This document shows positions 3,079-57,768 of a stretch of 64,000 bases of DNA, one piece after another. Source of the DNA: Paenibacillus sp. (GTDB lineage: Bacteria > Bacillota > Bacilli > Paenibacillales > YIM-B00363); assembly GCF_035645195.1 (NCBI RefSeq), contig NZ_DASQNA010000017.1, positions 39,011-103,010 on the forward strand, written 5' to 3'. The stretch's first letter is position 1. Each line of letters starts with the position of its first letter. Position numbers and translations under genes: made by a program. Below the pieces are notes generated by a model. It searched no databases. It was not told where the DNA came from and worked only from the letters and a program-made list of their open reading frames with translations.

Positions 3079-3094
3079 GCTAATGCGCCGCGAG

Positions 3095-3462
3095 CCGTAT
3101 GGATCGTCGGCGTGCAGCCCCGTTATGGGAAGCATGTATGCAAAAGAAGGGAGGCCCCTGCCCATAATTAGCATACGTCCTTCCCATAATGCGCCGCGCG
3201 CCGTCTGGAGCGTCATGTGTGCAGCCGCGTTATGGGAAGCATGTATGCAAAAGAAGGGAGCCCCCTGCCCATAATTAGCATACGTCCTTCCCATAATGCG
3301 TCTCGCGCCGCCTGGATCGTCGGTGTGCAGCTCCGTTATGGGAAGCATGTATGCAAAAGAAGGGAGCCCCCTGCCCATCTTTAGCATACGACCTTCCCAT
3401 AATCGCCTCGCGCTGCCTGGCTCATTGGCGTGCAGCTTCGTTAAGGGAAGTGTGTGTATGCA
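3095..3462. repeat. Tandem array of 105-107 bp units with internal inverted repeats (3 full + 1 degenerate)
   Basis: TTATGGGAAG starts at 3123, 3230 and 3336, with a degenerate copy at 3441. Each full unit closes with its complement CTTCCCATAA and has an inner GTATGC/GCATAC pair. Confidence 0.9.
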
Positions 3463-3510: not shown

Positions 3511-3527
3511 TGTAAATATATATAACA
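3511..3527. promoter_or_regulatory. GlnR/TnrA box
   Basis: TGTAA-ATATATA-TAACA matches TGTNA-N7-TNACA exactly and lies upstream of a nitrate-type ABC operon. Confidence 0.75.
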
Positions 3528-3566: not shown

Positions 3567-3594
3567 TTGACGGATGCAAATCCATCAGTAAAAT
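3567..3594 (+). promoter_or_regulatory. Candidate sigmaA promoter
   Basis: TTGACG-N16-TAAAAT in the AT-rich region upstream of the leader. Confidence 0.4.
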
Positions 3595-3715
3595 AAGCTT
3601 ATAACCACACCTCACGACAAAAACCACACACCAACACGGTATAAAACTTCACGCATACAGCAGGATCCAGACACTATTTTCTAAAAAGGTTAGAACACGA
3701 AATATCGAACGAGTT

Positions 3716-3833
3716 TGATGACAATGACGTCGATCGAACCGTTAGGGCAAAGGAGCCCTGTAGAAGCAGATCGCGAAGGCGCCTATAGGTTATTAGGTGC
3801 GTCGATCCGTGCTTTTGCAGGGCTTTTCGTTTT
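3716..3833 (+). promoter_or_regulatory. ANTAR-type dual-hairpin motif with overlapping terminator, module 1
   Basis: GAC[AATGAC]GTC at 3720-3731 and AGGGC[AAAGGA]GCCCT at 3744-3759 both have hexaloops with A1 and G4. The 3' arm of hairpin 2 is the 5' arm of terminator AGCCCTGTAGAAGCA / TGCTTTTGCAGGGCT-TTTCGTTTT. Confidence 0.8.
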
Positions 3834-3839
3834 GCCGCA

Positions 3840-3962
3840 GACACGAAGACGTGTCCCCTCGGGCAATGCCGCCTACCTGATGCCGCGTTACGATTTTGTC
3901 GTGAACAAAACTGTTTACGATTAGAAATGGTTTGCGTACGTGTCGGGTAGGCGTTTTCATTT
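3840..3962 (+). promoter_or_regulatory. ANTAR-type dual-hairpin motif with overlapping terminator, module 2
   Basis: GACAC[GAAGAC]GTGTC at 3840-3855 (G4 kept, A1 is G) and GGGC[AATGCC]GCCT at 3861-3874. Hairpin 2 overlaps terminator CGCCTACCTGAT / GTCGGGTAGGCG-TTTTCATTT. Confidence 0.7.
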
Positions 3963-4057
3963 AGACCTTATAGGGCGTGGAGGGAGAATATGAGAGAGAC
4001 GGTACGGTCGGCAGAGGCAAGGCGAGATGAGAGAAAACGGGCGGGGGGTGCTTCGCG

Positions 4058-5371
4058 ATGAACGACAGACGCCTTGAGGCGATCATCCAAGAAGCGCTGA
4101 AGAAGGATGCGTTGACCCGCCGGGAGTTTTTGAAAAAGGCAGGAGCGGTCGGGGCAGCGGCGTTCCTGCTGCCGAGCGCGCTGCTCGCCGCTTGCGGCGG
4201 CGGCACGACTCCGGCGCCGTCGTCGTCGAGCGGGTCCGGGGCAAAGACGTCGGGCAACAAAATCACGATCGGCTTCATTCCGCTGACGGACTGCGCGTCC
4301 GTCGTCATGGCCAAAGAGCTAGGGCTGTACGAGAAGTACGGCGTCGACGTCGACGTCACGAAGGAAGCGTCGTGGGCGGCGGTGCGGGATAAGCTGATCT
4401 CCGGCGACTTGAACGCGGCGCATTGCCTGTTCGGCATGCCGTTCTCGGTGTACACCGGCATCGGCGGGCAGGCCGGCACCGAAATGCCGATCGCGATGAT
4501 CATCAATGCGAACGGCCAGGCGATTACGCTGTCGAAACAGTTCGCTTCCGTCGGCTTCCGCAATTTGCCGGCGGCGAAGGACGCAATTGAGAAGGCGATG
4601 GCGGAGCGGGAAGTGACGTTCGCGATGACGTTCCCGGGCGGCACGCACGATTTGTGGCTGCGGTACTGGCTTGGCGCGGTCGGCGTCGATCAGTCGAAGC
4701 TGAAAATCATCACCGTCCCGCCGCCGCAAATGGTCGCGAACATGAAAGTAGGCAACATGGACGGCTTCTGCGTCGGCGAGCCTTGGAACCAAGTCGCCGT
4801 GCGCGACGATCTCGGGTTCACGCACATCTCGACGCAGGACATTTGGAAAGACCATACGGAGAAGGCGCTCGTCCTGAACAAAGCGTGGAGCGCCAACAAG
4901 GACGAAGTGAAAGCGGTCATGAAGGCCGTCTTGGAAGCTTCGATGTGGTTGGATAACCTGGACAACCGCAAGGAAGCCGCGAAGGTCATCGGGCATCAAG
5001 CGTACGTCAACGCGCCGGCGGCGGAAATCGAAAAACGGCTGCTCGGCGATTACGATCTCGGCGGCGGCCACGGCACGCACAAGTATACGGACGATTACAT
5101 GTTGTTCCACAAAGGCGGGACGATCAACTTCCCGCGCAAGTCGCATGCGATGTTCTTCATGAGCCAATACGTCCGCTTCGGCTATTTGAACAGCCACCCG
5201 GACTACCAGCAAGTCGCCGATAAGCTGATCATGCAGGATTTGTACAAAGAGGTCGCCGGCGAGATGGGCATTGCCGTTCCGGACGACGACATGAAGCCGT
5301 TCGATATCAAGCTCGACAACAAAACGTTCGACCCGAACGATCCGGCGGGATCGCTCGCGCAATACGGATAA
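4058..5371 (+). CDS. nrtA: NrtA/CmpA/NasF-type ABC substrate-binding lipoprotein with Tat signal
   Basis: TRREFLK twin-arginine motif, LAAC lipobox, IGFIPLTD, VPPPQMVANM, GFCVGEPWN, WKDHTEK. From recall, Lys at this position is NrtA-like and CmpA has Glu. Confidence 0.85.
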   Translation: MNDRRLEAIIQEALKKDALTRREFLKKAGAVGAAAFLLPSALLAACGGGTTPAPSSSSGSGAKTSGNKITIGFIPLTDCASVVMAKELGLYEKYGVDVDVTKEASWAAVRDKLISGDLNAAHCLFGMPFSVYTGIGGQAGTEMPIAMIINANGQAITLSKQFASVGFRNLPAAKDAIEKAMAEREVTFAMTFPGGTHDLWLRYWLGAVGVDQSKLKIITVPPPQMVANMKVGNMDGFCVGEPWNQVAVRDDLGFTHISTQDIWKDHTEKALVLNKAWSANKDEVKAVMKAVLEASMWLDNLDNRKEAAKVIGHQAYVNAPAAEIEKRLLGDYDLGGGHGTHKYTDDYMLFHKGGTINFPRKSHAMFFMSQYVRFGYLNSHPDYQQVADKLIMQDLYKEVAGEMGIAVPDDDMKPFDIKLDNKTFDPNDPAGSLAQYG

Positions 5372-5394: not shown

Positions 5395-6240
5395 GTGACG
5401 CAATTCACGGGACAAAGCGCGGCGGGCAGAGCGTTCCGGTCCGCGCGGCAGTTGACGCTGCCGTCGTACTGGCTGGGCGCCCTGCGCAAAGCCGCATATA
5501 TGCTGGGAAGCATGCTGCTGCTCATTCTGATGTGGGAGGCGGCGCACCGCCTCTCCGGTCAATCGCTGCCGGGCCCGATCAGCACGCTGGGCGTGCTTTG
5601 GAGCCTTGTGTCCGATCCGTTCTACGATTACGGCCCCAACGACAAGGGCGTCGCCCTGCAGTTCATCGCTTCGCTGCAGCGCGTATTCGCGGGCTTCTTG
5701 CTCGGCGCGCTCGTCGCGATTCCGCTCGGCATCGCCATGGGCGCGGTGCCGTTCTGCCGGGCGCTGTTCGATCCGATCGTGCAGGTGCTCCGGCCGGTGT
5801 CGCCGCTCGCTTGGTTCCCGATCGGCCTCGCGGCGTTTCAATCGGTCGGGCCGGCGACGATTTTCATTATTTTCATCACGTCGCTGTGGCCGACGGTCGT
5901 CAATACGGCGTTCGGCGTGGCGTCCATCCCGAAGGATCACCGCAACGTCGCTGCCGTGTTTAAGTTTTCAAAGTGGAAGTATTTGACGAAGGTGCTGTTC
6001 CCGTACACGCTGCCGCACATTCTGACGGGGCTGCGCCTCAGCCTCGGCATCGCGTGGATGGTCATCGTCGCCGCGGAAATGCTGTCGGGCGGCACGGGCA
6101 TCGGCTTCTTCGTCTGGGACAGCTGGAACGCGTTGAACGTCGAGCGAGTCATCGCGGCGATCGCGCTGATCGGCGTCGTCGGTTTGCTGCTCGACAGAGG
6201 CTTCTATTATCTCGAACAGCGGTTCAAATACGGGGGGTGA
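5395..6240 (+). CDS. nrtB: Nitrate-type ABC permease
   Basis: DYGPNDKG, LRPVSPLAWFPIGL and GLRLSLGIAWMVIVAAEML motifs. Confidence 0.88.
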   Translation: MTQFTGQSAAGRAFRSARQLTLPSYWLGALRKAAYMLGSMLLLILMWEAAHRLSGQSLPGPISTLGVLWSLVSDPFYDYGPNDKGVALQFIASLQRVFAGFLLGALVAIPLGIAMGAVPFCRALFDPIVQVLRPVSPLAWFPIGLAAFQSVGPATIFIIFITSLWPTVVNTAFGVASIPKDHRNVAAVFKFSKWKYLTKVLFPYTLPHILTGLRLSLGIAWMVIVAAEMLSGGTGIGFFVWDSWNALNVERVIAAIALIGVVGLLLDRGFYYLEQRFKYGG

Positions 6241-6244
6241 CGGG

Positions 6245-7069
6245 ATGGCTTACCTCAGCATCGAGAACGTCAATAAGATTTACAACACGAAGCAAGGCCG
6301 CTTCAACGTGCTGCAGAACGTCAGCATGGGAATCGAACGCGGCGAGTTCGTTTCCTTGATCGGGCATTCCGGCTGCGGCAAATCGACGATTCTGAACATC
6401 GTCGCGGGGCTGGAGAAAGCGACCGACGGCCGCGTCGTCCTGGACGGGAAGCCGATTGCGGGTCCGGGTCCGGATCGCGGCGTCGTGTTCCAAAACTACT
6501 CGCTGCTGCCGTGGTTGTCCGTCTATGGCAACGTGTACGAGGTGGTCGACGCCGTTTTCTCGAACAAATCGAAGGCGGAGAAGCAGGAGATCGTCGAGCG
6601 ATTCCTGACGATCGTCGGGCTGTGGAAGCATCGCGACAAGCGGCCGGACGAAATTTCCGGCGGGATGAAGCAGCGCGCGGCGATCGCCCGCGCCTTCGCC
6701 GTCGGGCCGCAGGTGCTGCTGCTCGACGAGCCGTTCGGCGCGCTCGACGCGCTCACGCGGTCGACGCTGCAGGACGAATTGGTCGGCTTGATGAAATCGG
6801 CGAGCTCGAGCGGCGGCGGCAGCGCCGGAGGCGCCAACGGGGGCACCGACACCGTCATTATGGTCACGCACGATATCGACGAGGCGATTTTCTTGTCGGA
6901 CCGGATCGTCGTCATGACGAACGGGCCGGCCGCGACGATTCGGAAAATCATTACTGTGCCGCTGGCGCGCCCGCGCGAGCGCAAGGAAGTAATCAACCAT
7001 CCGGTGTACAACGAATTGAAGCGGGAGCTGCTTGAATATTTGCACGGCAGTCCGGCCGCGGCGCACTGA
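6245..7069 (+). CDS. Nitrate-type ABC ATP-binding protein (NrtC/D-like)
   Basis: GHSGCGKS Walker A, ISGGMKQR signature, LLLDEPFGALD, MVTHDIDEA. Confidence 0.9.
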   Translation: MAYLSIENVNKIYNTKQGRFNVLQNVSMGIERGEFVSLIGHSGCGKSTILNIVAGLEKATDGRVVLDGKPIAGPGPDRGVVFQNYSLLPWLSVYGNVYEVVDAVFSNKSKAEKQEIVERFLTIVGLWKHRDKRPDEISGGMKQRAAIARAFAVGPQVLLLDEPFGALDALTRSTLQDELVGLMKSASSSGGGSAGGANGGTDTVIMVTHDIDEAIFLSDRIVVMTNGPAATIRKIITVPLARPRERKEVINHPVYNELKRELLEYLHGSPAAAH

Positions 7070-7127: not shown

Positions 7128-7331
7128 ATGATCGGAAGCATCGGAGTGCCGGGGTTGATCCTGATCCTTATTATCGCGCTGGTCGTCTTCGGACCGCGCA
7201 AGCTTCCCGAGATCGGGAGCGCGTTCGGGCGAACGTTATCGGAGTTCAAGCGGGGCGCCCGCGATTTCACGAACGGTCTAGACGACAAAGAGGCGGAGCG
7301 GCCGGCGTTGGAGCAGAAGCCGCTTTCGTAA
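7128..7331 (+). CDS. tatA: Twin-arginine translocase subunit TatA
   Basis: GGAGG RBS; MIGSIGVPGLILILIIALVVFGPRKLPEIG has the TatA FGPxKLP hinge. Confidence 0.92.
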   Translation: MIGSIGVPGLILILIIALVVFGPRKLPEIGSAFGRTLSEFKRGARDFTNGLDDKEAERPALEQKPLS

Positions 7332-20045: not shown

Positions 20046-20091
20046 CGCGAGCCGGCCGGGCTGGCGGCGGTTTCTCCGGCGCCCGCGGCCG

Positions 20092-20652
20092 GGAATAGTC
20101 GGATTATCTCCGACTAAATCGTCCCAACCAGCGCCCGCGGCGGGAATAGTCGGAGTATCTCCGACTAAATCGCCTCAACCGGCGCCCGCGTCCGGAATAG
20201 TCGGAGTTTTTCCGACTAAATCGCCTCAACCGGCGCCCGCGTCCGGAATAGTCGGAGTTTCTCCGACTAAATCGCCTCAACCGGCACCCGCGTCCGGAAT
20301 AGTCGGAGTTTCTCCGACTAAATCGCCCCAACCGCCGCCCGCGTCCGGAATAGTCGGAGTATCTCCGACTAAATCGCTCCAACCGGCGCCCGCGGCCGGA
20401 ATAGTCGGAGTCTCTCCGACTAAATCGCCTCAACCGGCGCCCGCGTCCGGAATAGTCGGAGTTTCTCCGACTAAATCGCCCGAACCGCCGCCCGCGTCCG
20501 GAATAGTCGGAGTTTCTCCGACTAAATCGCCCGAACCGCCGCCCGCGACCGCAATAGTCGGAGTTTCTCCGACGAAATCGCCCCAACCGGCGCCTGCGGC
20601 CGGAATAGTCGGAGTTTCTCCGACTAAATCGCCCGAACCACCGCCCGCGGCC
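20092..20652. repeat. 11 x 51 bp tandem palindromic array
   Basis: Unit starts at 20092, 20143, ... 20602, exactly 51 bp apart. Most units contain TAGTCGGAG-N3-CTCCGACTA (units 1 and 10 have one mismatch) plus a GC-rich, slightly variable 21 bp linker. Confidence 0.95.
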
Positions 20653-20669
20653 GCCCGTCGAAGTTTCGC

Positions 20670-34849: not shown

Positions 34850-36157
34850 ATGGTTATCTTGTATATAAAAAAAATATCTTTTTCTAAATTATTAAAAGTT
34901 TATTTTTTTCTAATAATAATTGTATATATTACCTATTGTAATATCTCAAATTATAACCTTTCTATGGTTATTTCACCATATTTAGTAGTTATTTTTTCGT
35001 TCGTATTCTTTTTAAGAACCCGCCATAAGCCGCACCATTTAATATTAAGTTTTTTTATATTCATTTCAAACCTAAGTATAGTAGTTTCAGAGTATTTTTA
35101 TAGTGGATTAGTTACAACTCATACATTTGCAAAAAACGAAGAAACATATAGCGTGTTGATTAACATATTGCTTTTGTTTATCGCTGTTATAGCTATTTTT
35201 TATAAAAGTAATAAATCTAGTTATGAAAATATAATCCAATTAAAGATTAAAGATAATAATATTATTTTTACTATAATGGTGTGCTTATTATTATTTATAG
35301 TAATTACTGGTATAAATAATAGAGGTAGTTTTGATGGTTATAGAGTAGCAATTACATCATATTATAGCTATGGATTAATTGCTATTTTAATTGGTTATGC
35401 TAATACAGGGAATTCTATTATTAAAAAAAACATTTTATACTTTTTAGCTTCTCTCTATGTCATTCAGGATTTAATTTATGGCGGAAGAAAAACATTATTT
35501 GAACTTGCAGTTTTGATGATAATATTAAAATTTGGTAATAAAATTAAACCCTTAAAAGTATTATTATTTGGGTTAGTTGGCTATGTTTTATATACAGCTG
35601 TAGGGGTTTATAGAAGCCATTATGATATTAATATGGTGAGTTTTGATTCAGTACTACAAGTATTAATCGGTAGAAAGTTTGTCTTTGATACACCAGTAGG
35701 AGCATACTATGCTTCTGCAACACATGTTTATGCATCTTCAATAATGGACTTTAGTTTCAAAATAAGATCATTTATTGATTTTGTTTTACAGATTATATTT
35801 GGTGGTTCTTCTACTGGAATAGGTACATTATCTGCATATATCTCTCGGAATCTTACAGGTAATATGGGTGGAGGGATACTACCTACTCACTTCTTTTTTT
35901 GGTTCGGTTGGTTGGGTGTAGTTTTAATAGCATCAATTATTACATTATTGCTTAATCTTTCTCTAAATAATGAGTATAAAAAATACTTGTCATTAGTCTT
36001 TACATGTAGTATTACTAACTGGTATTTATACACACCTTTAGTTTTGTTTAGAATGGATATTTTTGCTGTAACAGTAATATACTTTATGACAGTATTTGTT
36101 AGTCAGGTTTTTTCTAAAAATCAAATAAGTTCAGTCAAACCATCTGTTAAGTATTAA
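34850..36157 (+). CDS. wzy: Wzy polysaccharide polymerase
   Basis: About 10-11 TM helices, GGRK motif and a large outer loop; located inside the cluster. Confidence 0.75.
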   Translation: MVILYIKKISFSKLLKVYFFLIIIVYITYCNISNYNLSMVISPYLVVIFSFVFFLRTRHKPHHLILSFFIFISNLSIVVSEYFYSGLVTTHTFAKNEETYSVLINILLLFIAVIAIFYKSNKSSYENIIQLKIKDNNIIFTIMVCLLLFIVITGINNRGSFDGYRVAITSYYSYGLIAILIGYANTGNSIIKKNILYFLASLYVIQDLIYGGRKTLFELAVLMIILKFGNKIKPLKVLLFGLVGYVLYTAVGVYRSHYDINMVSFDSVLQVLIGRKFVFDTPVGAYYASATHVYASSIMDFSFKIRSFIDFVLQIIFGGSSTGIGTLSAYISRNLTGNMGGGILPTHFFFWFGWLGVVLIASIITLLLNLSLNNEYKKYLSLVFTCSITNWYLYTPLVLFRMDIFAVTVIYFMTVFVSQVFSKNQISSVKPSVKY

Positions 36158-52354: not shown

Positions 52355-54196
52355 TCAAACCTCGTGCTGCGCCACCAGGCGTTGATCCCGAACGAAGAAC
52401 TTCATGTTCTCCACCGTGTCGAGAATCTCCTGGGAATAGCGCTGCACGAAAATTCTTCCGTCGTACATTTTCCGCACGTATACGCTGGCGCCGGCCTTGA
52501 GCGTCGACGCGCCGCCGGACAGCCCGCCCACGATCATGGCCGAAATCGTATTGCCGGCTTCCAGCTGCGAGCCTTTGCACACCGCTTCGTTTTGGTAAAA
52601 CACGATATTGTTTTTCGAATACAGCTGGCTCTGGAGCACGCCCTCTTTCCGGATCAGAATATCCCCGTTGGACATGACCGTGGACAGCTGGCATTTCGGA
52701 ATATCCATCTGCACGACGGTTTCCTCGCTCCGTTTGATCGTTTCGGACGTTTCGCCGAGCATCTGCTGAAGCTCGTTCAAGAACGCGATCGGATCGACCT
52801 GAAGGAAGCAGGAGGGACGAAGGAGCGCGAGCAGCCGCTGCTTCAGCGTCTCCAAATGTCCGCTTTGAATGTTCTGGATCGTCGCGATGCAGCCCAGTAT
52901 CTCCTTCGCGCATACCGGGATGTCCTTGAATTTCGTGTCCGCCAGCAGCTGGAGCGATTGCCCGGAGGGAACCGACGCCCCGCGGGAAGCGAGCGTGTCG
53001 GTGAGCATTTTCCACGCGTTGCGCAGCGAGAGCAGCTGCTCGTTCAATTTTTTCGTGAAGTTGTACAGCCGGTTGTACAGCACGCCGAAGTGGCCGGAGT
53101 ACAGCTTGCCGCCGATGACGTTGCCTTTGATGAAAATGCTGCCGGTCGCCGTGACCGTGGCGTTATACACGCTGCCGAACACATGGACGTTGCCCAGCGC
53201 TTCGACGACCATGCCGTCCGTGACGTCGCCGTAGACGTACACGTCGCCGGAGAAAAAGATGTTGCCCGTCTTCAAGTCGACGTTCCCCGGAACGACGTAA
53301 AACGGGTTGATGCTGACCAGCTTGATGCGTCCTCCGCCCGTAATGCGCGGACGGCCTTCTTTCAACGCGATGACGTTCGTGCCGTCCACGATCTGCGTGT
53401 GGTCCTTGGCGACGAGGATCAAATCCTTCGCTGGTCTCGGCTCGATGACCGAGCCGAAAATATCATAACCGGCCTCCCCTGCGATCATAGGTATTTTGCG
53501 GGCGACGGTTTCGCCCTTCTGCGCGGATGGGATCTTCAAATGATTGCGGAAGTCGATCGAGCCGTTCACTTCCTCGAAACTGCTTTCTACCTTCTCGTTG
53601 AAGAGCAGTTCGATTTGGGCGTCTCGGCTTTGTACCGGGGGACGGCCCTCCGCGATGACGACCGGCTTGTGCGTCGGCTGCAGCAGCTCCGCTTCGATCG
53701 CCCTGCGGTTGTACGAGAACAATTTTTTTTCGTGGAGTACGGTTTGGACGTCGCTCAGCTCGAGCTCCTGCACGACGCGTTCGGGGTCTTCGACGGCTTC
53801 GACGACGAGCTCGCCGCTCGCTTCTTGGTCCAGCAGTTTCCAGGCGAAGCGCCGCTTCGCGAAGAGATGAAACCATGCAGTCATGCGGTCGTCGGCGATT
53901 TCGATTCGAAACAGGGGCTCCGGCGCGACGGACCATTCGATCTCGTCATCCGGATGAACGACGACGCGCCCCTTCCTCGGCACGCCATTGACGCGAAGCT
54001 CGACCGGATCGACGGCTTCGAGGATGACGGGGCTGTTCTGTTCGTCGGGGACGAGGCGAATGTCCCCGTTCTCGATTTTGGCGGCGCTCATGCCGAAGCG
54101 GAGGGAGGGATCGTCGGGCGCGCTTTCCTCCGCTTCGAGGCCGCCGAGATCCAGCTTGTTGATCAGCCGGATCATGTCCTGTTCCGATAAGGCCAT
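52355..54196 (-). CDS. FapA/DUF342 family protein
   Basis: GSIDFR, GNVDLKTGNIFFSGDV and beta-helix-like repeats. Confidence 0.88.
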   Translation of the reverse strand: MALSEQDMIRLINKLDLGGLEAEESAPDDPSLRFGMSAAKIENGDIRLVPDEQNSPVILEAVDPVELRVNGVPRKGRVVVHPDDEIEWSVAPEPLFRIEIADDRMTAWFHLFAKRRFAWKLLDQEASGELVVEAVEDPERVVQELELSDVQTVLHEKKLFSYNRRAIEAELLQPTHKPVVIAEGRPPVQSRDAQIELLFNEKVESSFEEVNGSIDFRNHLKIPSAQKGETVARKIPMIAGEAGYDIFGSVIEPRPAKDLILVAKDHTQIVDGTNVIALKEGRPRITGGGRIKLVSINPFYVVPGNVDLKTGNIFFSGDVYVYGDVTDGMVVEALGNVHVFGSVYNATVTATGSIFIKGNVIGGKLYSGHFGVLYNRLYNFTKKLNEQLLSLRNAWKMLTDTLASRGASVPSGQSLQLLADTKFKDIPVCAKEILGCIATIQNIQSGHLETLKQRLLALLRPSCFLQVDPIAFLNELQQMLGETSETIKRSEETVVQMDIPKCQLSTVMSNGDILIRKEGVLQSQLYSKNNIVFYQNEAVCKGSQLEAGNTISAMIVGGLSGGASTLKAGASVYVRKMYDGRIFVQRYSQEILDTVENMKFFVRDQRLVAQHEV

Positions 54197-54269: not shown

Positions 54270-54348
54270 TTCGGTAACCCGGCCACCATAGATTCGTCAT
54301 CCTTAGGTCCGAGGCTTTGCGTCTCCGCCTTTCGACGGATTTGCCATT
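54270..54348 (-). ncRNA. c-di-GMP-I (GEMM) riboswitch
   Basis: Minus strand GGCAAATCCGTC-GAAA-GGCGGAGACGCAAAGCC...CTAAG...TATGG...GTTACC. Confidence 0.93.
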
Positions 54349-54417
54349 ATCGAAGCAGTGATATATTTGGTTGATAGAGCGATTTCGAATGTTGTCGATT
54401 TTTTGTAGGTAATGTTG

Positions 54418-56910: not shown

Positions 56911-57768
56911 GTGAAAATGAGAGTTTCCAGTGTGCAGTACCATCTGCATACGATCCAGAGCTTCGACGAGTTCCGCGCGCAGGTGGAGCATTATGTGAAA
57001 ACGGCGCAAGAGTTCGGCACGGAGTTTTTACTGTTTCCCGAGTTTTTCACGACCCAGCTGCTGTCGATCCCGAACGCGGCCGGAACCGCGAGCGGCATCG
57101 AAGAGCTGCCGAAATATACGGAAGCGTACCGCGAGCTGTTCGTCCGCTTAGCGAAAGAAACCGGCATGTATATTATCGCCGGCACGCACGTGTTGGAGCG
57201 CGGCGGTTATTTGTATAACACGGCGCATTTGTTCAAACCCGACGGGACGGTCGGGGAGCAGCCGAAGCTGCACATCACGCCGACCGAGGTGACGGAGTGG
57301 AACGTGCGCGGCGGCGATTCGTTCCAAGTGTTCGAGACGGAGAAAGGGACGATTGCGATCCTTACGTGCTACGACATCGAATTTCCGGAAATTGTCCGGA
57401 TGGCGAAGGCGCGGGGGGCGGACGTCATTTTTTGCCCGTCGTGCACGGACGACCGCCATGGGTTTTACCGCGTCCGGTACACGAGTCACGCGCGCGCCGT
57501 CGAGAATCAAGTGTACGTCGTGACGGCCGGCACGGTCGGCAGCCTGCCGACGGTCGACTTCATGCGGCTCAATTACGGCCAATCGGCGATTCTTGCGCCG
57601 AACGACATCCCGTTCCCGCCGGCCGGCATCATTGCCGAGGGCGTCGTGAACGACGACATGATCGTGACCGGCGATTTGAATCTGCAGCTGCTTTACGAGG
57701 TGCGCGAGCGGGGCAGCGTCACGACGTGGCGCGACCGCCGCACAGATTTGTACACCGACTGGAAGTGA
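56911..57768 (+). CDS. Carbon-nitrogen hydrolase (nitrilase superfamily)
   Basis: Glu-Lys-Cys triad in FPEF, QPKLH and TCYDIEFPE. Confidence 0.93.
   Translation: MKMRVSSVQYHLHTIQSFDEFRAQVEHYVKTAQEFGTEFLLFPEFFTTQLLSIPNAAGTASGIEELPKYTEAYRELFVRLAKETGMYIIAGTHVLERGGYLYNTAHLFKPDGTVGEQPKLHITPTEVTEWNVRGGDSFQVFETEKGTIAILTCYDIEFPEIVRMAKARGADVIFCPSCTDDRHGFYRVRYTSHARAVENQVYVVTAGTVGSLPTVDFMRLNYGQSAILAPNDIPFPPAGIIAEGVVNDDMIVTGDLNLQLLYEVRERGSVTTWRDRRTDLYTDWK

What the first reader, a model, noticed from the sequence alone, without database searches (positions are those of the whole stretch)
3716..3962. Two ANTAR attenuators in series, below a GlnR/TnrA box, ahead of a nitrate-type ABC operon
Seen: two complete modules, each with two hexaloop hairpins (loops AATGAC and AAAGGA; GAAGAC and AATGCC). 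In each, hairpin 2 overlaps a long terminator stem. An exact TGTNA-N7-TNACA box lies at 3511. Known: ANTAR proteins (NasR, NasT, AmiR, EutV) bind dual hairpins with A1/G4 hexaloops and block the overlapping terminator. Inference: initiation is gated by nitrogen status and elongation by two ANTAR checkpoints, which would sharpen the response. I do not recall this tandem layout described for a Bacillales nitrate transporter. No ANTAR gene is in this window.
Basis: partly seen in the sequence, partly recalled or inferred. Interest (0 to 1): 0.7.

Follow-up and report, generated by a model that had tools for sequence, protein, structure and literature searches.

The report
Serial ANTAR-type attenuators before nitrate transporter
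The leader of a nitrate-type ABC transporter operon in a soil-crust Bacillota contig has one well-conserved ANTAR-type antitermination switch and then a weaker, fast-evolving second one; this kind of control was already catalogued for nitrate genes, so it is a good but ordinary example.

Summary
Four short hexaloop hairpins, two long terminators that each overlap hairpin 2, and an exact TGTNA-N7-TNACA box are at the stated coordinates and are far beyond chance.

- Module 1 (3714-3833) is a canonical ANTAR target. It is almost invariant in four close leader variants, conserved in a 79% relative, and similar to single modules ahead of orthologous operons in four other Bacillota-like loci. Two of those loci carry an ANTAR gene beside the operon.
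- Module 2 (3840-3962) is only semi-canonical. Its first loop is GAAGAC, with G rather than A at position 1, and it can close to a tetraloop.
- Hairpin P1b varies about as much as the unstructured 5' UTR, and one variant loses G4. Terminator 2 is weakened in two variants. The more distant relative keeps terminator 2 but has no ANTAR hairpins.
- The promoter hexamers and the GlnR/TnrA half-sites are invariant, but the box lies about 82 nt upstream of the predicted start, which is not a classical position.
- No ANTAR gene lies in the window or within about 10 kb on either side. The rest of the genome could not be searched.

ANTAR elements ahead of Paenibacillus nitrate genes, and same-leader pairs in Desulfotomaculum and Pelotomaculum, are already listed in Ramesh et al. 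2012, Table S2. This is a new member of a known kind, of modest interest.

The parts
3511..3527 (.). GlnR/TnrA-type operator, TGTAA-ATATATA-TAACA
   Evidence: Exact match; 2 in the window against 0.33 expected. All 8 specified positions are invariant in 4 leader variants, while 4 of 9 N positions vary. L086 has a 1-mismatch match at the homologous place.
3567..3594 (+). Sigma-A-type promoter, TTGACG-16-TAAAAT; inferred transcription start near 3601
   Evidence: Consensus scan gives 10 of 12 matches. Both hexamers are invariant in 4 variants while the spacer is 31% variable. L086 has TTGACT-17-TAAAAT at the aligned position. The start site is inferred, not measured.
3601..3713 (+). A/C-rich 5' UTR with no conserved structure
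   Evidence: 42% of columns vary among 4 close variants. No Rfam match.
3714..3738 (+). P1a, hairpin 1 of module 1, hexaloop AATGAC (3723-3728)
   Evidence: 4% variable columns. Conserved in L086.
3743..3760 (+). P2a, hairpin 2 of module 1, hexaloop AAAGGA (3749-3754). Its 3' half is the start of T1.
   Evidence: 0% variable columns. Covariance-model hit 3719-3758 at 25.7 bits.
3755..3833 (+). T1, intrinsic terminator 1: stem 3755-3823 and U-tract 3824-3833
   Evidence: MFE about -45 kcal/mol for P2a through the U-tract in all close variants. Substitutions keep pairing, for example G.U to A-U and A-U to G.U. The outer stem is conserved in L086.
3840..3855 (+). P1b, hairpin 1 of module 2, loop GAAGAC (G1, G4). 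It can close to an AAGA tetraloop.
   Evidence: 38% variable columns. G4 and the closing pair are lost in L174, and the hairpin is deleted in L086.
3861..3874 (+). P2b, hairpin 2 of module 2, hexaloop AATGCC. Its 3' half and C6 begin T2.
   Evidence: 14% variable columns. Covariance-model hit 3841-3874 at 22.7 bits.
3870..3962 (+). T2, intrinsic terminator 2: stem 3870-3953 and U-tract 3954-3962
   Evidence: 14 consecutive pairs at the base. -45.7 kcal/mol in the window, -37.9 with a 2x2 internal loop in L172, and an eroded base stem in L171. L086 keeps a strong T2 with a compensatory C-G to U-A change.
3990..4061 (+). 23-codon upstream ORF with a GGAGGG ribosome-binding site. Its TGA overlaps the transporter ATG (ATGA).
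   Evidence: Read from the sequence. 3963-3989 is invariant in 4 variants. Comparable uORFs ending in ATGA occur in L086, L004 and L006. The peptide is not conserved. A role in translational coupling is inferred.
4058..5371 (+). NrtA-like substrate-binding lipoprotein with a Tat signal
   Evidence: Pfam NMT1_2, E = 1.4e-86, and a weak TAT_signal hit. Best solved relative is cyanobacterial NrtA 2g29, E = 3.3e-75.
5395..6240 (+). Nitrate-type ABC permease
   Evidence: NCBIfam TIGR01183 ntrB, 242 bits against a cutoff of 209.
6245..7069 (+). Nitrate-type ABC ATPase
   Evidence: NCBIfam TIGR01184 ntrCD, 324 bits against a cutoff of 292.
7128..7331 (+). tatA, last gene of the cluster
   Evidence: Called gene with PF02416.

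Best explanation
This is the promoter and leader of an nrtABC-like nitrate-uptake operon, followed by tatA, in an uncultured Bacillota from soil crust.

**Initiation.** Transcription starts at a conserved sigma-A-type promoter. A conserved GlnR/TnrA-type operator lies upstream and probably links initiation to nitrogen status.

**Elongation.** The polymerase then meets two intrinsic terminators in series.
- Terminator 1 is guarded by a canonical ANTAR target. The hexaloop hairpins P1a and P2a form first in the nascent RNA. An active ANTAR protein dimer holds P2a, whose 3' half is needed for the terminator stem, and the polymerase reads through. Without the protein, the much more stable terminator forms.
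- Terminator 2 is guarded by a weaker, semi-canonical module. P2b is canonical. P1b has G4 but not A1.
- In this organism module 2 probably acts as a second ANTAR-dependent checkpoint that lowers basal read-through and steepens the response.
- Module 2 is evolutionarily labile and is not essential to the design.

**Shown:** the sequence anatomy, the statistics, the conservation pattern, and the ANTAR modules and genes in relatives.

**Inferred:** the transcription start, protein binding, termination at about 3830 and 3958, the inducing signal, and which ANTAR protein acts.
For: **Anatomy and significance:**. Nascent-RNA folds give P1+P2 before the 3' terminator arm exists. The terminator conformers reach -54 to -60 kcal/mol, against -13 to -15 for the hairpin pairs.

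**Independent model test:** covariance model R1 was built from L086, L004 (two modules) and L005 only.
- It scores window M1 at 25.7 bits and M2 at 22.7 bits, the top two hits in the window.
- Both are above every non-training hit in about 2.4 Mb of related loci.

**Comparative evidence**
- Orthologous operon leaders in L004, L005, L006, L086 and L087 each have a module overlapping a terminator.
- The Bacteroidota, Acidobacteriota and other loci have none.
- ANTAR proteins sit next to the operon in L004 and L006.

**Stem covariation:** over 8 modules, P1 has compensatory changes at 3 of 4 pairs and the closing C-G pairs are invariant. G4 is in 16 of 16 loops and A1 in 15 of 16.

**Footprint in 4 close variants:** P1a 4%, P2a 0%, -35 and -10 0%, and box half-sites 0% variable, against 42% in the UTR.

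**Operon identity:**

**Literature**
- Dual hexaloops with A1/G4, a 5-12 nt linker and an overlapped terminator define ANTAR targets, and nitrate transporters are a listed target class (PMC3369931).
- G4 is the only base-specific contact, and a single hexaloop is the minimal binding unit (PMC8934654).
Against: - No ANTAR gene was found in the window or within about 10 kb on either side. The rest of the genome is not available, because the source is a metagenome contig.
- No RNA data exist for this locus, so termination and read-through are unobserved.
- P1b lacks A1 and prefers a tetraloop.
- P1b varies like neutral sequence, and L174 loses G4.
- Module 2 scores drop to 13-16 bits in close relatives and to nothing in L086.
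- T2 is weakened in L171 and L172.
- The closest relative by transporter protein, L003 (85%), has no ANTAR leader at all.
- The hairpins used for the covariation count were chosen because they pair, so the 100% pairing is partly by construction.
- The box at about -82 fits neither the classical TnrA activation position nor promoter-overlapping repression. This positional rule is from my own knowledge of B. subtilis TnrA/GlnR sites.
Confidence: 0.62

Rival explanations
1. Only module 1 is an ANTAR switch. T2 is not ANTAR-controlled. It would be a constitutive partial terminator or structural 5' hairpin, or it answers to another, unidentified factor. The ANTAR-like look of P1b/P2b would then be a decaying or incidental remnant.
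For: - L086 keeps a strong T2, with a compensatory change, but has no ANTAR hairpins in front of it.
- P1b is 38% variable against 42% for the unstructured UTR, and L174 loses G4 and the closing pair.
- P1b lacks A1 and folds best as a tetraloop.
- Module 2 scores fall to 13-16 bits in close relatives.
Against: - In the window, M2 scores 22.7 bits, above all background in about 2.5 Mb.
- P2b, linker b and U-tract 2 are well conserved, at 14%, 0% and 0% variable.
- P2b is a canonical A1/G4 hexaloop placed exactly on the 5' arm of T2.
- A fully unguarded 14-bp terminator with a U-tract would largely silence the operon.
- A single hexaloop suffices for ANTAR binding (PMC8934654).
Confidence: 0.28
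2. The leader is a relic. The organism has lost its ANTAR regulator, and the operon is silent or expressed only through leaky termination.
For: - No ANTAR gene within about 84 kb around the locus.
- In L004 and L006 the regulator is adjacent, so its absence here is notable.
Against: - Module 1, T1, the promoter and the operator are under clear constraint among four close variants.
- The transporter genes are intact.
- L005, L086 and L087 also lack an adjacent ANTAR gene within the DNA held. In Ramesh 2012, Table S2, most listed ANTAR targets carry no note of a neighbouring ANTAR gene.
Confidence: 0.05
3. The hairpins are not protein targets. They are chance features of two ordinary terminators, or part of some other riboregulator.
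For: - No curated Rfam family matches the region.
- There is no experimental data.
Against: - Shuffle frequency of 0.0005.
- The independent covariance model hits both modules.
- The same motif recurs ahead of orthologous operons with covarying stems and invariant G4.
- An ANTAR gene is adjacent in two relatives.
Confidence: 0.04

Closest known systems
NasR / nasF leader of Klebsiella oxytoca, and the NasS-NasT systems of Azotobacter, Pseudomonas and Paracoccus
   Same: An ANTAR protein binds two hexaloop hairpins in the leader of a nitrate-assimilation operon that begins with an NrtA/NasF-type ABC transporter, and this prevents an overlapping intrinsic terminator from forming (PMC3369931, PMC7496416).
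   Different: Those leaders have one module. Here there are two terminators in series. The host is a Bacillota. No NIT-ANTAR or NasS/NasT-type gene is seen nearby. In the relatives L004 and L006 the regulator looks like a pseudo-receiver ANTAR protein paired with a TrpD-like protein.
Predicted ANTAR elements ahead of Paenibacillus nitrate/nitrite transporter and nitrite reductase genes (Ramesh et al. 2012, Table S2)
   Same: The same RNA motif overlapping terminators, the same pathway and the same broad lineage.
   Different: Those targets are MFS-type transporters and reductase operons with single elements, some in divergent pairs. Here the target is an ABC transporter with two elements in series.
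Same-leader pairs of ANTAR elements in Desulfotomaculum acetoxidans, D. carboxydivorans and Pelotomaculum thermopropionicum (Ramesh et al. 2012, Table S2)
   Same: Two same-strand ANTAR-plus-terminator hits 80-250 nt apart ahead of one gene. Examples are 34402/34596, 813893/813992 and 651231/651312. That is the same serial layout.
   Different: The targets there are amtB-glnK, urea and nif genes in Clostridia. The pairs were listed but not analysed as tandem switches, and their relative conservation is unknown.
EutV and the eut locus of Enterococcus faecalis
   Same: Several ANTAR-guarded terminators lie along one transcription unit. The A1/G4 hexaloops and the 5-12 nt linker rule apply.
   Different: The eut terminators are separated by genes, not stacked in one leader. 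The signal is ethanolamine, sensed through a kinase.
TnrA/GlnR control of nasA and nasBCDEF in Bacillus subtilis (own knowledge: Nakano 1995; Wray 1996; Yoshida 2003)
   Same: A TGTNA-N7-TNACA operator upstream of nitrate-assimilation genes ties initiation to nitrogen limitation.
   Different: B. subtilis uses no ANTAR attenuator. Activating TnrA sites there are centred near -50, whereas this box is near -82 relative to the predicted start.
Tandem riboswitches and tandem T-boxes (own knowledge: Sudarsan 2006; Welz and Breaker 2007)
   Same: Two complete sensor-terminator units in series give a steeper, lower-background response.
   Different: Those are ligand- or tRNA-sensing RNAs, not protein-dependent antiterminators. 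Here the second unit is not fully canonical.

Membership tests
ANTAR-target RNA (dual-hexaloop antiterminator) | Two short stem-loops with six-nucleotide terminal loops | tested here: met
   P1a, P2a, P1b and P2b have 4-6 bp stems. P1b can alternatively close to a tetraloop, which is 1.8 kcal/mol more stable.
ANTAR-target RNA (dual-hexaloop antiterminator) | A at loop position 1 and G at position 4 in both loops | tested here: inconclusive
   Module 1 meets it (AATGAC, AAAGGA). In module 2, P2b meets it (AATGCC), but P1b is GAAGAC, with G4 present and A1 absent. Across 8 modules, G4 is in 16 of 16 loops and A1 in 15 of 16.
ANTAR-target RNA (dual-hexaloop antiterminator) | Short linker between the hairpins (5-12 nt in the eut leaders) | tested here: met
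   The linker is 10 nt between the scanned stems of module 1 (4 nt if both helices are fully extended, 12 nt between the 4-bp cores) and 5 nt in module 2. The range is from PMC3369931.
ANTAR-target RNA (dual-hexaloop antiterminator) | The 3' half of hairpin 2 is part of an intrinsic terminator stem followed by a U-tract | tested here: met
   T1 is 3755-3823 plus TTTTCGTTTT. T2 is 3870-3953 plus TTTTCATTT.
ANTAR-target RNA (dual-hexaloop antiterminator) | Conservation or covariation of the module in relatives | tested here: inconclusive
   Module 1 meets it: 0-4% variable, 29.1 bits in relatives, conserved in L086. Module 2 does not clearly meet it: P1b is 38% variable, scores are 13-16 bits, and it is absent in L086.
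ANTAR-target RNA (dual-hexaloop antiterminator) | A cognate ANTAR-domain protein encoded in the same genome | not testable with these tools
   None lies from window -9.7 kb to +73.8 kb. An ANTAR gene is adjacent in relatives L004 and L006.
ANTAR-target RNA (dual-hexaloop antiterminator) | Signal-dependent read-through of the terminator | not testable with these tools
   No RNA runs hold this locus.
GlnR/TnrA operator | 17-bp inverted repeat TGTNA-N7-TNACA near a nitrogen-metabolism promoter | tested here: met
   Exact at 3511-3527. The half-sites are invariant in 4 variants.
GlnR/TnrA operator | Position typical of activation (centre near -50) or of repression (overlapping the promoter) | tested here: not met
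   The centre, 3519, is about 82 nt upstream of the predicted start. In L086 it is about -73. No conserved second box overlaps the -35. The positional rule is from my own knowledge.
GlnR/TnrA operator | A GlnR or TnrA gene in the genome | not testable with these tools
   The genome is not available. No such gene was sought beyond the called-gene Pfam lists of the window.
NrtABC/NasFED-type nitrate ABC transporter | Permease and ATPase reach the curated nitrate-transporter models; the binding protein is NrtA-like | tested here: met
   TIGR01183 scores 242 against a cutoff of 209, and TIGR01184 scores 324 against 292. NrtA 2g29 matches at E = 3.3e-75.
NrtABC/NasFED-type nitrate ABC transporter | Substrate is nitrate or nitrite rather than cyanate or bicarbonate | not tested
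   CmpA also matches, at E = 2.7e-57. Ligand-binding residues were not compared.

The most novel reading that the evidence does not exclude
The two terminators might be read by different inputs, making the leader a two-signal AND gate. One input could be a nitrate/nitrite-responsive ANTAR protein at module 1, and the other a second ANTAR protein or another factor at T2.

Separately, the regulator in this clade might be the pair seen next to the operon in L004 and L006: a pseudo-receiver ANTAR protein with a TrpD-like partner. If that partner is related to cyanobacterial CnaT, which is required for nir operon expression, this would give CnaT-like proteins a mechanism as sensors that control ANTAR antitermination.
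Probability: 0.1. Interest if true: 0.6.

Novelty: new member of a known kind. Interest (0 to 1): 0.3.

Why it matters
The locus is a clean natural example of layered nitrogen control: an operator at initiation, then one or two protein-dependent attenuators.

Its close relatives form a small natural series in which the second checkpoint runs from strong, to weakened, to unguarded. That series could be used to measure what a second serial attenuator adds to dynamic range and leakiness.

It does not change what is known about ANTAR systems. Its main practical value is for annotating nitrate-uptake regulation in uncultured soil-crust Bacillota. It also points to the ANTAR/TrpD-like gene pair in relatives as a candidate regulator worth testing.

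Tried and rejected
- **Rfam:** no family covers the region at gathering or permissive thresholds. Rfam gave no ANTAR-target match, so membership was tested with my own model.
- **RNA-seq:** no RNA runs hold the locus. Only soil-crust DNA metagenomes do.
- **Search for the ANTAR gene:** Pfam lists of called genes, tblastn with consensus and real ANTAR proteins, and look-ups reaching about 10 kb beyond each window end all found none. Proteins outside the window cannot be looked up, so further walking was not possible.
- **Third model hit, 57624-57664 (-):** it lies antisense inside the nitrilase-family gene and has no terminator, so I rejected it as chance.
- **Loose hairpin-pair scan of all loci:** it gave hundreds of false positives in AT-rich Flavobacterium DNA and was not used as evidence.
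- **MAFFT alignment of modules with long or odd linkers (L006, L087):** these misaligned. The model was therefore built from four sequences.
- **69-codon ORF 3715-3924, called as a gene by JGI:** rejected as coding. It has no family hit, and indels of 7 and 11 nt against L086 break the frame.
- **Palindrome TGACGGATGCAAATCCATCA over the -35:** not conserved in close variants.
- **Alternative weak promoter that would put the box at -50:** its hexamers are not conserved.
- **Second GlnR/TnrA box overlapping the -35:** only L171 comes within one mismatch (my reading).

Full report
**What is in the sequence**

- Module 1: P1a (tgac-AATGAC-gtcg, 3719-3732, extendable to 3714-3738 with a bulged G) and P2a (tagggc-AAAGGA-gccctg, 3743-3760).
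- The 3' half of P2a begins a long hairpin, T1 (3755-3823), followed by TTTTCGTTTT.
- Module 2: P1b (gacac-GAAGAC-gtgtc, 3840-3855) and P2b (gggc-AATGCC-gcct, 3861-3874).
- T2 (3870-3953) starts inside P2b and is followed by TTTTCATTT.

The region folds at -120.3 kcal/mol, z = -8.55 against shuffles, and the MFE shows both terminators. In 2000 dinucleotide shuffles of the leader, two hairpin-pair-plus-terminator modules appeared with frequency 0.0005. On both strands of the window, these two have by far the longest overlapping terminator stems. Folding the nascent RNA up to the point where the 3' terminator arm is not yet made gives P1 and P2 in both modules. The complete modules prefer the terminators, at -54 to -60 kcal/mol against -13 to -15 for the hairpin pairs. 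That is the arrangement expected of a protein-dependent antiterminator.

**Context**

- A sigma-A-type promoter, TTGACG-16-TAAAAT, lies at 3567-3594.
- The exact box TGTAAATATATATAACA is at 3511-3527. There are two exact matches in the window against 0.33 expected.
- Downstream lie a Tat-signal NrtA-like lipoprotein (Pfam NMT1_2; best solved relative cyanobacterial NrtA, E = 3.3e-75), a permease and an ATPase, then tatA. The permease and ATPase exceed the curated NCBIfam cutoffs for nitrate ABC transporters.
- The window is part of a soil-crust (biocrust) metagenome contig.
- Spo0M, a CotJC-like Mn-catalase and YetF point to a spore-forming Bacillota.
- The best transporter matches are Ammoniphilus, Paenibacillus and Halalkalibacter.

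**Is it an ANTAR target?**

Rfam gave no match of any kind for this region, so I tested membership in other ways.

First, relatives. In the five closest Bacillota-like loci that have a leader, the orthologous operon is preceded by the same kind of module overlapping a terminator. These are L004, L005, L006, L086 and L087. L004 has a second module ahead of the divergent MFS transporter. The roughly 150 Bacteroidota, Acidobacteriota, Chloroflexota and Deinococcota loci have none.

Second, a covariance model built only from four relatives' modules. It ranks window M1 (25.7 bits) and M2 (22.7 bits) first and second in the window. Both are above every non-training hit in about 2.4 Mb of loci.

Third, covariation over eight modules. 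The P1 stem has compensatory changes at three of four pairs and the closing C-G pairs never vary. G4 is present in 16 of 16 loops and A1 in 15 of 16. The hairpins were chosen for pairing, so the 100% pairing is partly circular.

Fourth, the regulator in relatives. L004 and L006 encode an ANTAR-domain protein directly beside the operon (Pfam E = 1e-15 to 3e-17; best solved relative EutV).

These features match the published definition: hexaloops with A1/G4, a 5-12 nt linker and an overlapped terminator (PMC3369931). G4 is the only base-specific contact (PMC8934654).

**The two modules are not equal**

Members of the transporter's 90% protein cluster gave three further leader variants from sister populations: L170/171, L172/173/175 and L174. 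Variable columns across the four variants:

| Segment | Variable columns |
|---|---|
| Unstructured 5' UTR | 42% |
| P1a | 4% |
| P2a | 0% |
| T1 | 14% |
| P1b | 38% |
| P2b | 14% |
| T2 arms | 17-33% |

- T1 changes keep pairing, and its stability is -44 to -46 kcal/mol in all variants.
- P1b changes include loss of G4 and of the closing pair in L174.
- T2 falls from -45.7 kcal/mol in the window to -37.9 with an internal loop in L172. It loses its base stem in L171.
- Model scores agree. M1 scores 29.1 bits in all relatives. M2 scores 16.4, 14.1 and 13.2 bits.
- In the more distant L086 (79% transporter identity) the whole leader is alignable. M1 and T1 are conserved. T2 is strong and carries a compensatory C-G to U-A change. 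P1b is deleted and the P2b loop is TTGTC, so no ANTAR motif precedes T2.
- In the window itself, P1b has G rather than A at loop position 1, and its tetraloop form is 1.8 kcal/mol more stable.

Module 1 with T1 is therefore the constrained switch. Module 2 with T2 is an accessory that varies between lineages, and it is best preserved in this window.

**Initiation control**

Among the four variants, both promoter hexamers and all eight specified positions of the box are invariant. The spacer, the N positions and the flanks vary by 31-70%. L086 has a one-mismatch box at the homologous place. This supports a real operator.

Its centre is about 82 nt upstream of the predicted start, and about 73 nt in L086. 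That is neither the -50 position of TnrA-activated promoters nor a promoter-overlapping repressor site (own knowledge of B. subtilis). The sign and mechanism of its effect are open.

**The regulator**

No ANTAR gene lies in the window or within about 10 kb on either side. The 322-kb ENA contig extends much further, but proteins outside the window cannot be looked up.

**Comparison with what is known**

ANTAR control of nitrate-assimilation operons is classical for NasR and NasT. Ramesh et al. 2012 predicted ANTAR elements ahead of nitrate and nitrite transporters in many bacteria. Their Table S2 lists Paenibacillus polymyxa and two other Paenibacillus strains.

The same table lists same-strand pairs 80-250 nt apart ahead of one gene:
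- Desulfotomaculum acetoxidans: 34402/34596, 1043787/1043969 and 1656692/1656943.
- D. carboxydivorans: 813893/813992.
- Pelotomaculum thermopropionicum: 651231/651312.

The text notes 13 attenuation systems in six transcription units. A 2025 review of antiterminators does not discuss tandem ANTAR elements. The layout is catalogued but not studied. The present case is a new member of a known kind. What is new is the host lineage, the ABC-type target and the visible lability of the second unit.

**Verdict**

- Most likely (about 0.6): a GlnR/TnrA-linked promoter followed by a canonical ANTAR attenuator and a weaker second ANTAR-dependent checkpoint.
- Main rival (about 0.3): only the first is ANTAR-controlled.
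- Interest is modest, at 0.3.

Noticed in passing
L004:14287-15944 (+) and L006:7859-9531 (-): An overlapping gene pair lies next to the nitrate-type ABC operon in two relatives. The first gene encodes a roughly 200-aa protein with a C-terminal ANTAR domain. By my reading of the two sequences, without an alignment to a reference receiver domain, its REC-like N-terminus lacks the phospho-acceptor Asp (VILQM / LIICS), so it may be a pseudo-receiver like AmiR. The second encodes a TrpD-like Glycos_transf_3 protein that scores below the trpD cutoff; its best NCBIfam match is PRK07394 'hypothetical protein'. From memory, cyanobacterial CnaT, which is needed for nir operon expression, is also TrpD-like. 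No paper linking ANTAR and this partner was found.
   Followed up: partly
window 3990-4061: A 23-codon upstream ORF with a strong ribosome-binding site (GGAGGG). Its stop TGA overlaps the transporter start (ATGA). The 27 nt before it are invariant in four variants. uORFs with the same ATGA overlap occur in L086, L004 and L006, although the peptides are unrelated. This may be a translational-coupling device. In L172-type variants the transporter start is GTG, and gene callers extended the protein by 27 residues.
   Followed up: partly
window 3081-3455: A tandem repeat of about 106 nt, 3-4 copies at 75-90% identity, fills the intergenic space between rmuC and the operator. Each copy carries a small terminator-like hairpin on the minus strand.
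   Followed up: partly
window 20076-20653: A tandem array of 11.3 copies of a 51-nt unit (92% matches). Each unit contains a hairpin, AGTCGGAG-TTT-CTCCGACT. JGI called a 160-aa gene with no family hit across it. Whether it is a 17-residue protein repeat or a non-coding hairpin array is open.
   Followed up: partly
window 54270-54355 (-): A c-di-GMP-I riboswitch (84.5 bits) lies directly upstream of a FapA-family gene (52355-54196, -), which is followed by an HD-GYP-type gene.
   Followed up: no
L004:9245-9281 (-): A second ANTAR module with a terminator faces the divergent MFS (NarK/NasA-like) transporter. The intergenic region therefore holds two divergent ANTAR leaders plus several exact TGTNA-N7-TNACA boxes, as noted for Paenibacillus polymyxa in Ramesh 2012.
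   Followed up: partly
window 7128-7331; L003:5372-5570; L004:13267-14091; L006:13284-13997: Tat components travel with this transporter, whose binding protein has a twin-arginine signal. tatA lies downstream in the window and upstream in L003. tatC lies downstream in L004 and L006.
   Followed up: no
L086:9745-9760 versus L086:9646-9665: In L086 the stretch just after T1 (tgacttcaatgtgac) is nearly the reverse complement of the P1a region. The MFE therefore encloses T1 in a long-range helix. The window has no equivalent.
   Followed up: no
window 35988-36004: The only other exact TGTNA-N7-TNACA match in the window (TGTCATTAGTCTTTACA) lies inside the polysaccharide-synthesis gene cluster. It is probably chance.
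   Followed up: no
L003:5200-5372: The closest relative by transporter protein, an Ammoniphilus MAG at 85%, has no ANTAR leader. The operon starts with tatA behind a plain promoter, downstream of an MFS transporter gene. The attenuator is therefore not universal even among near relatives.
   Followed up: partly
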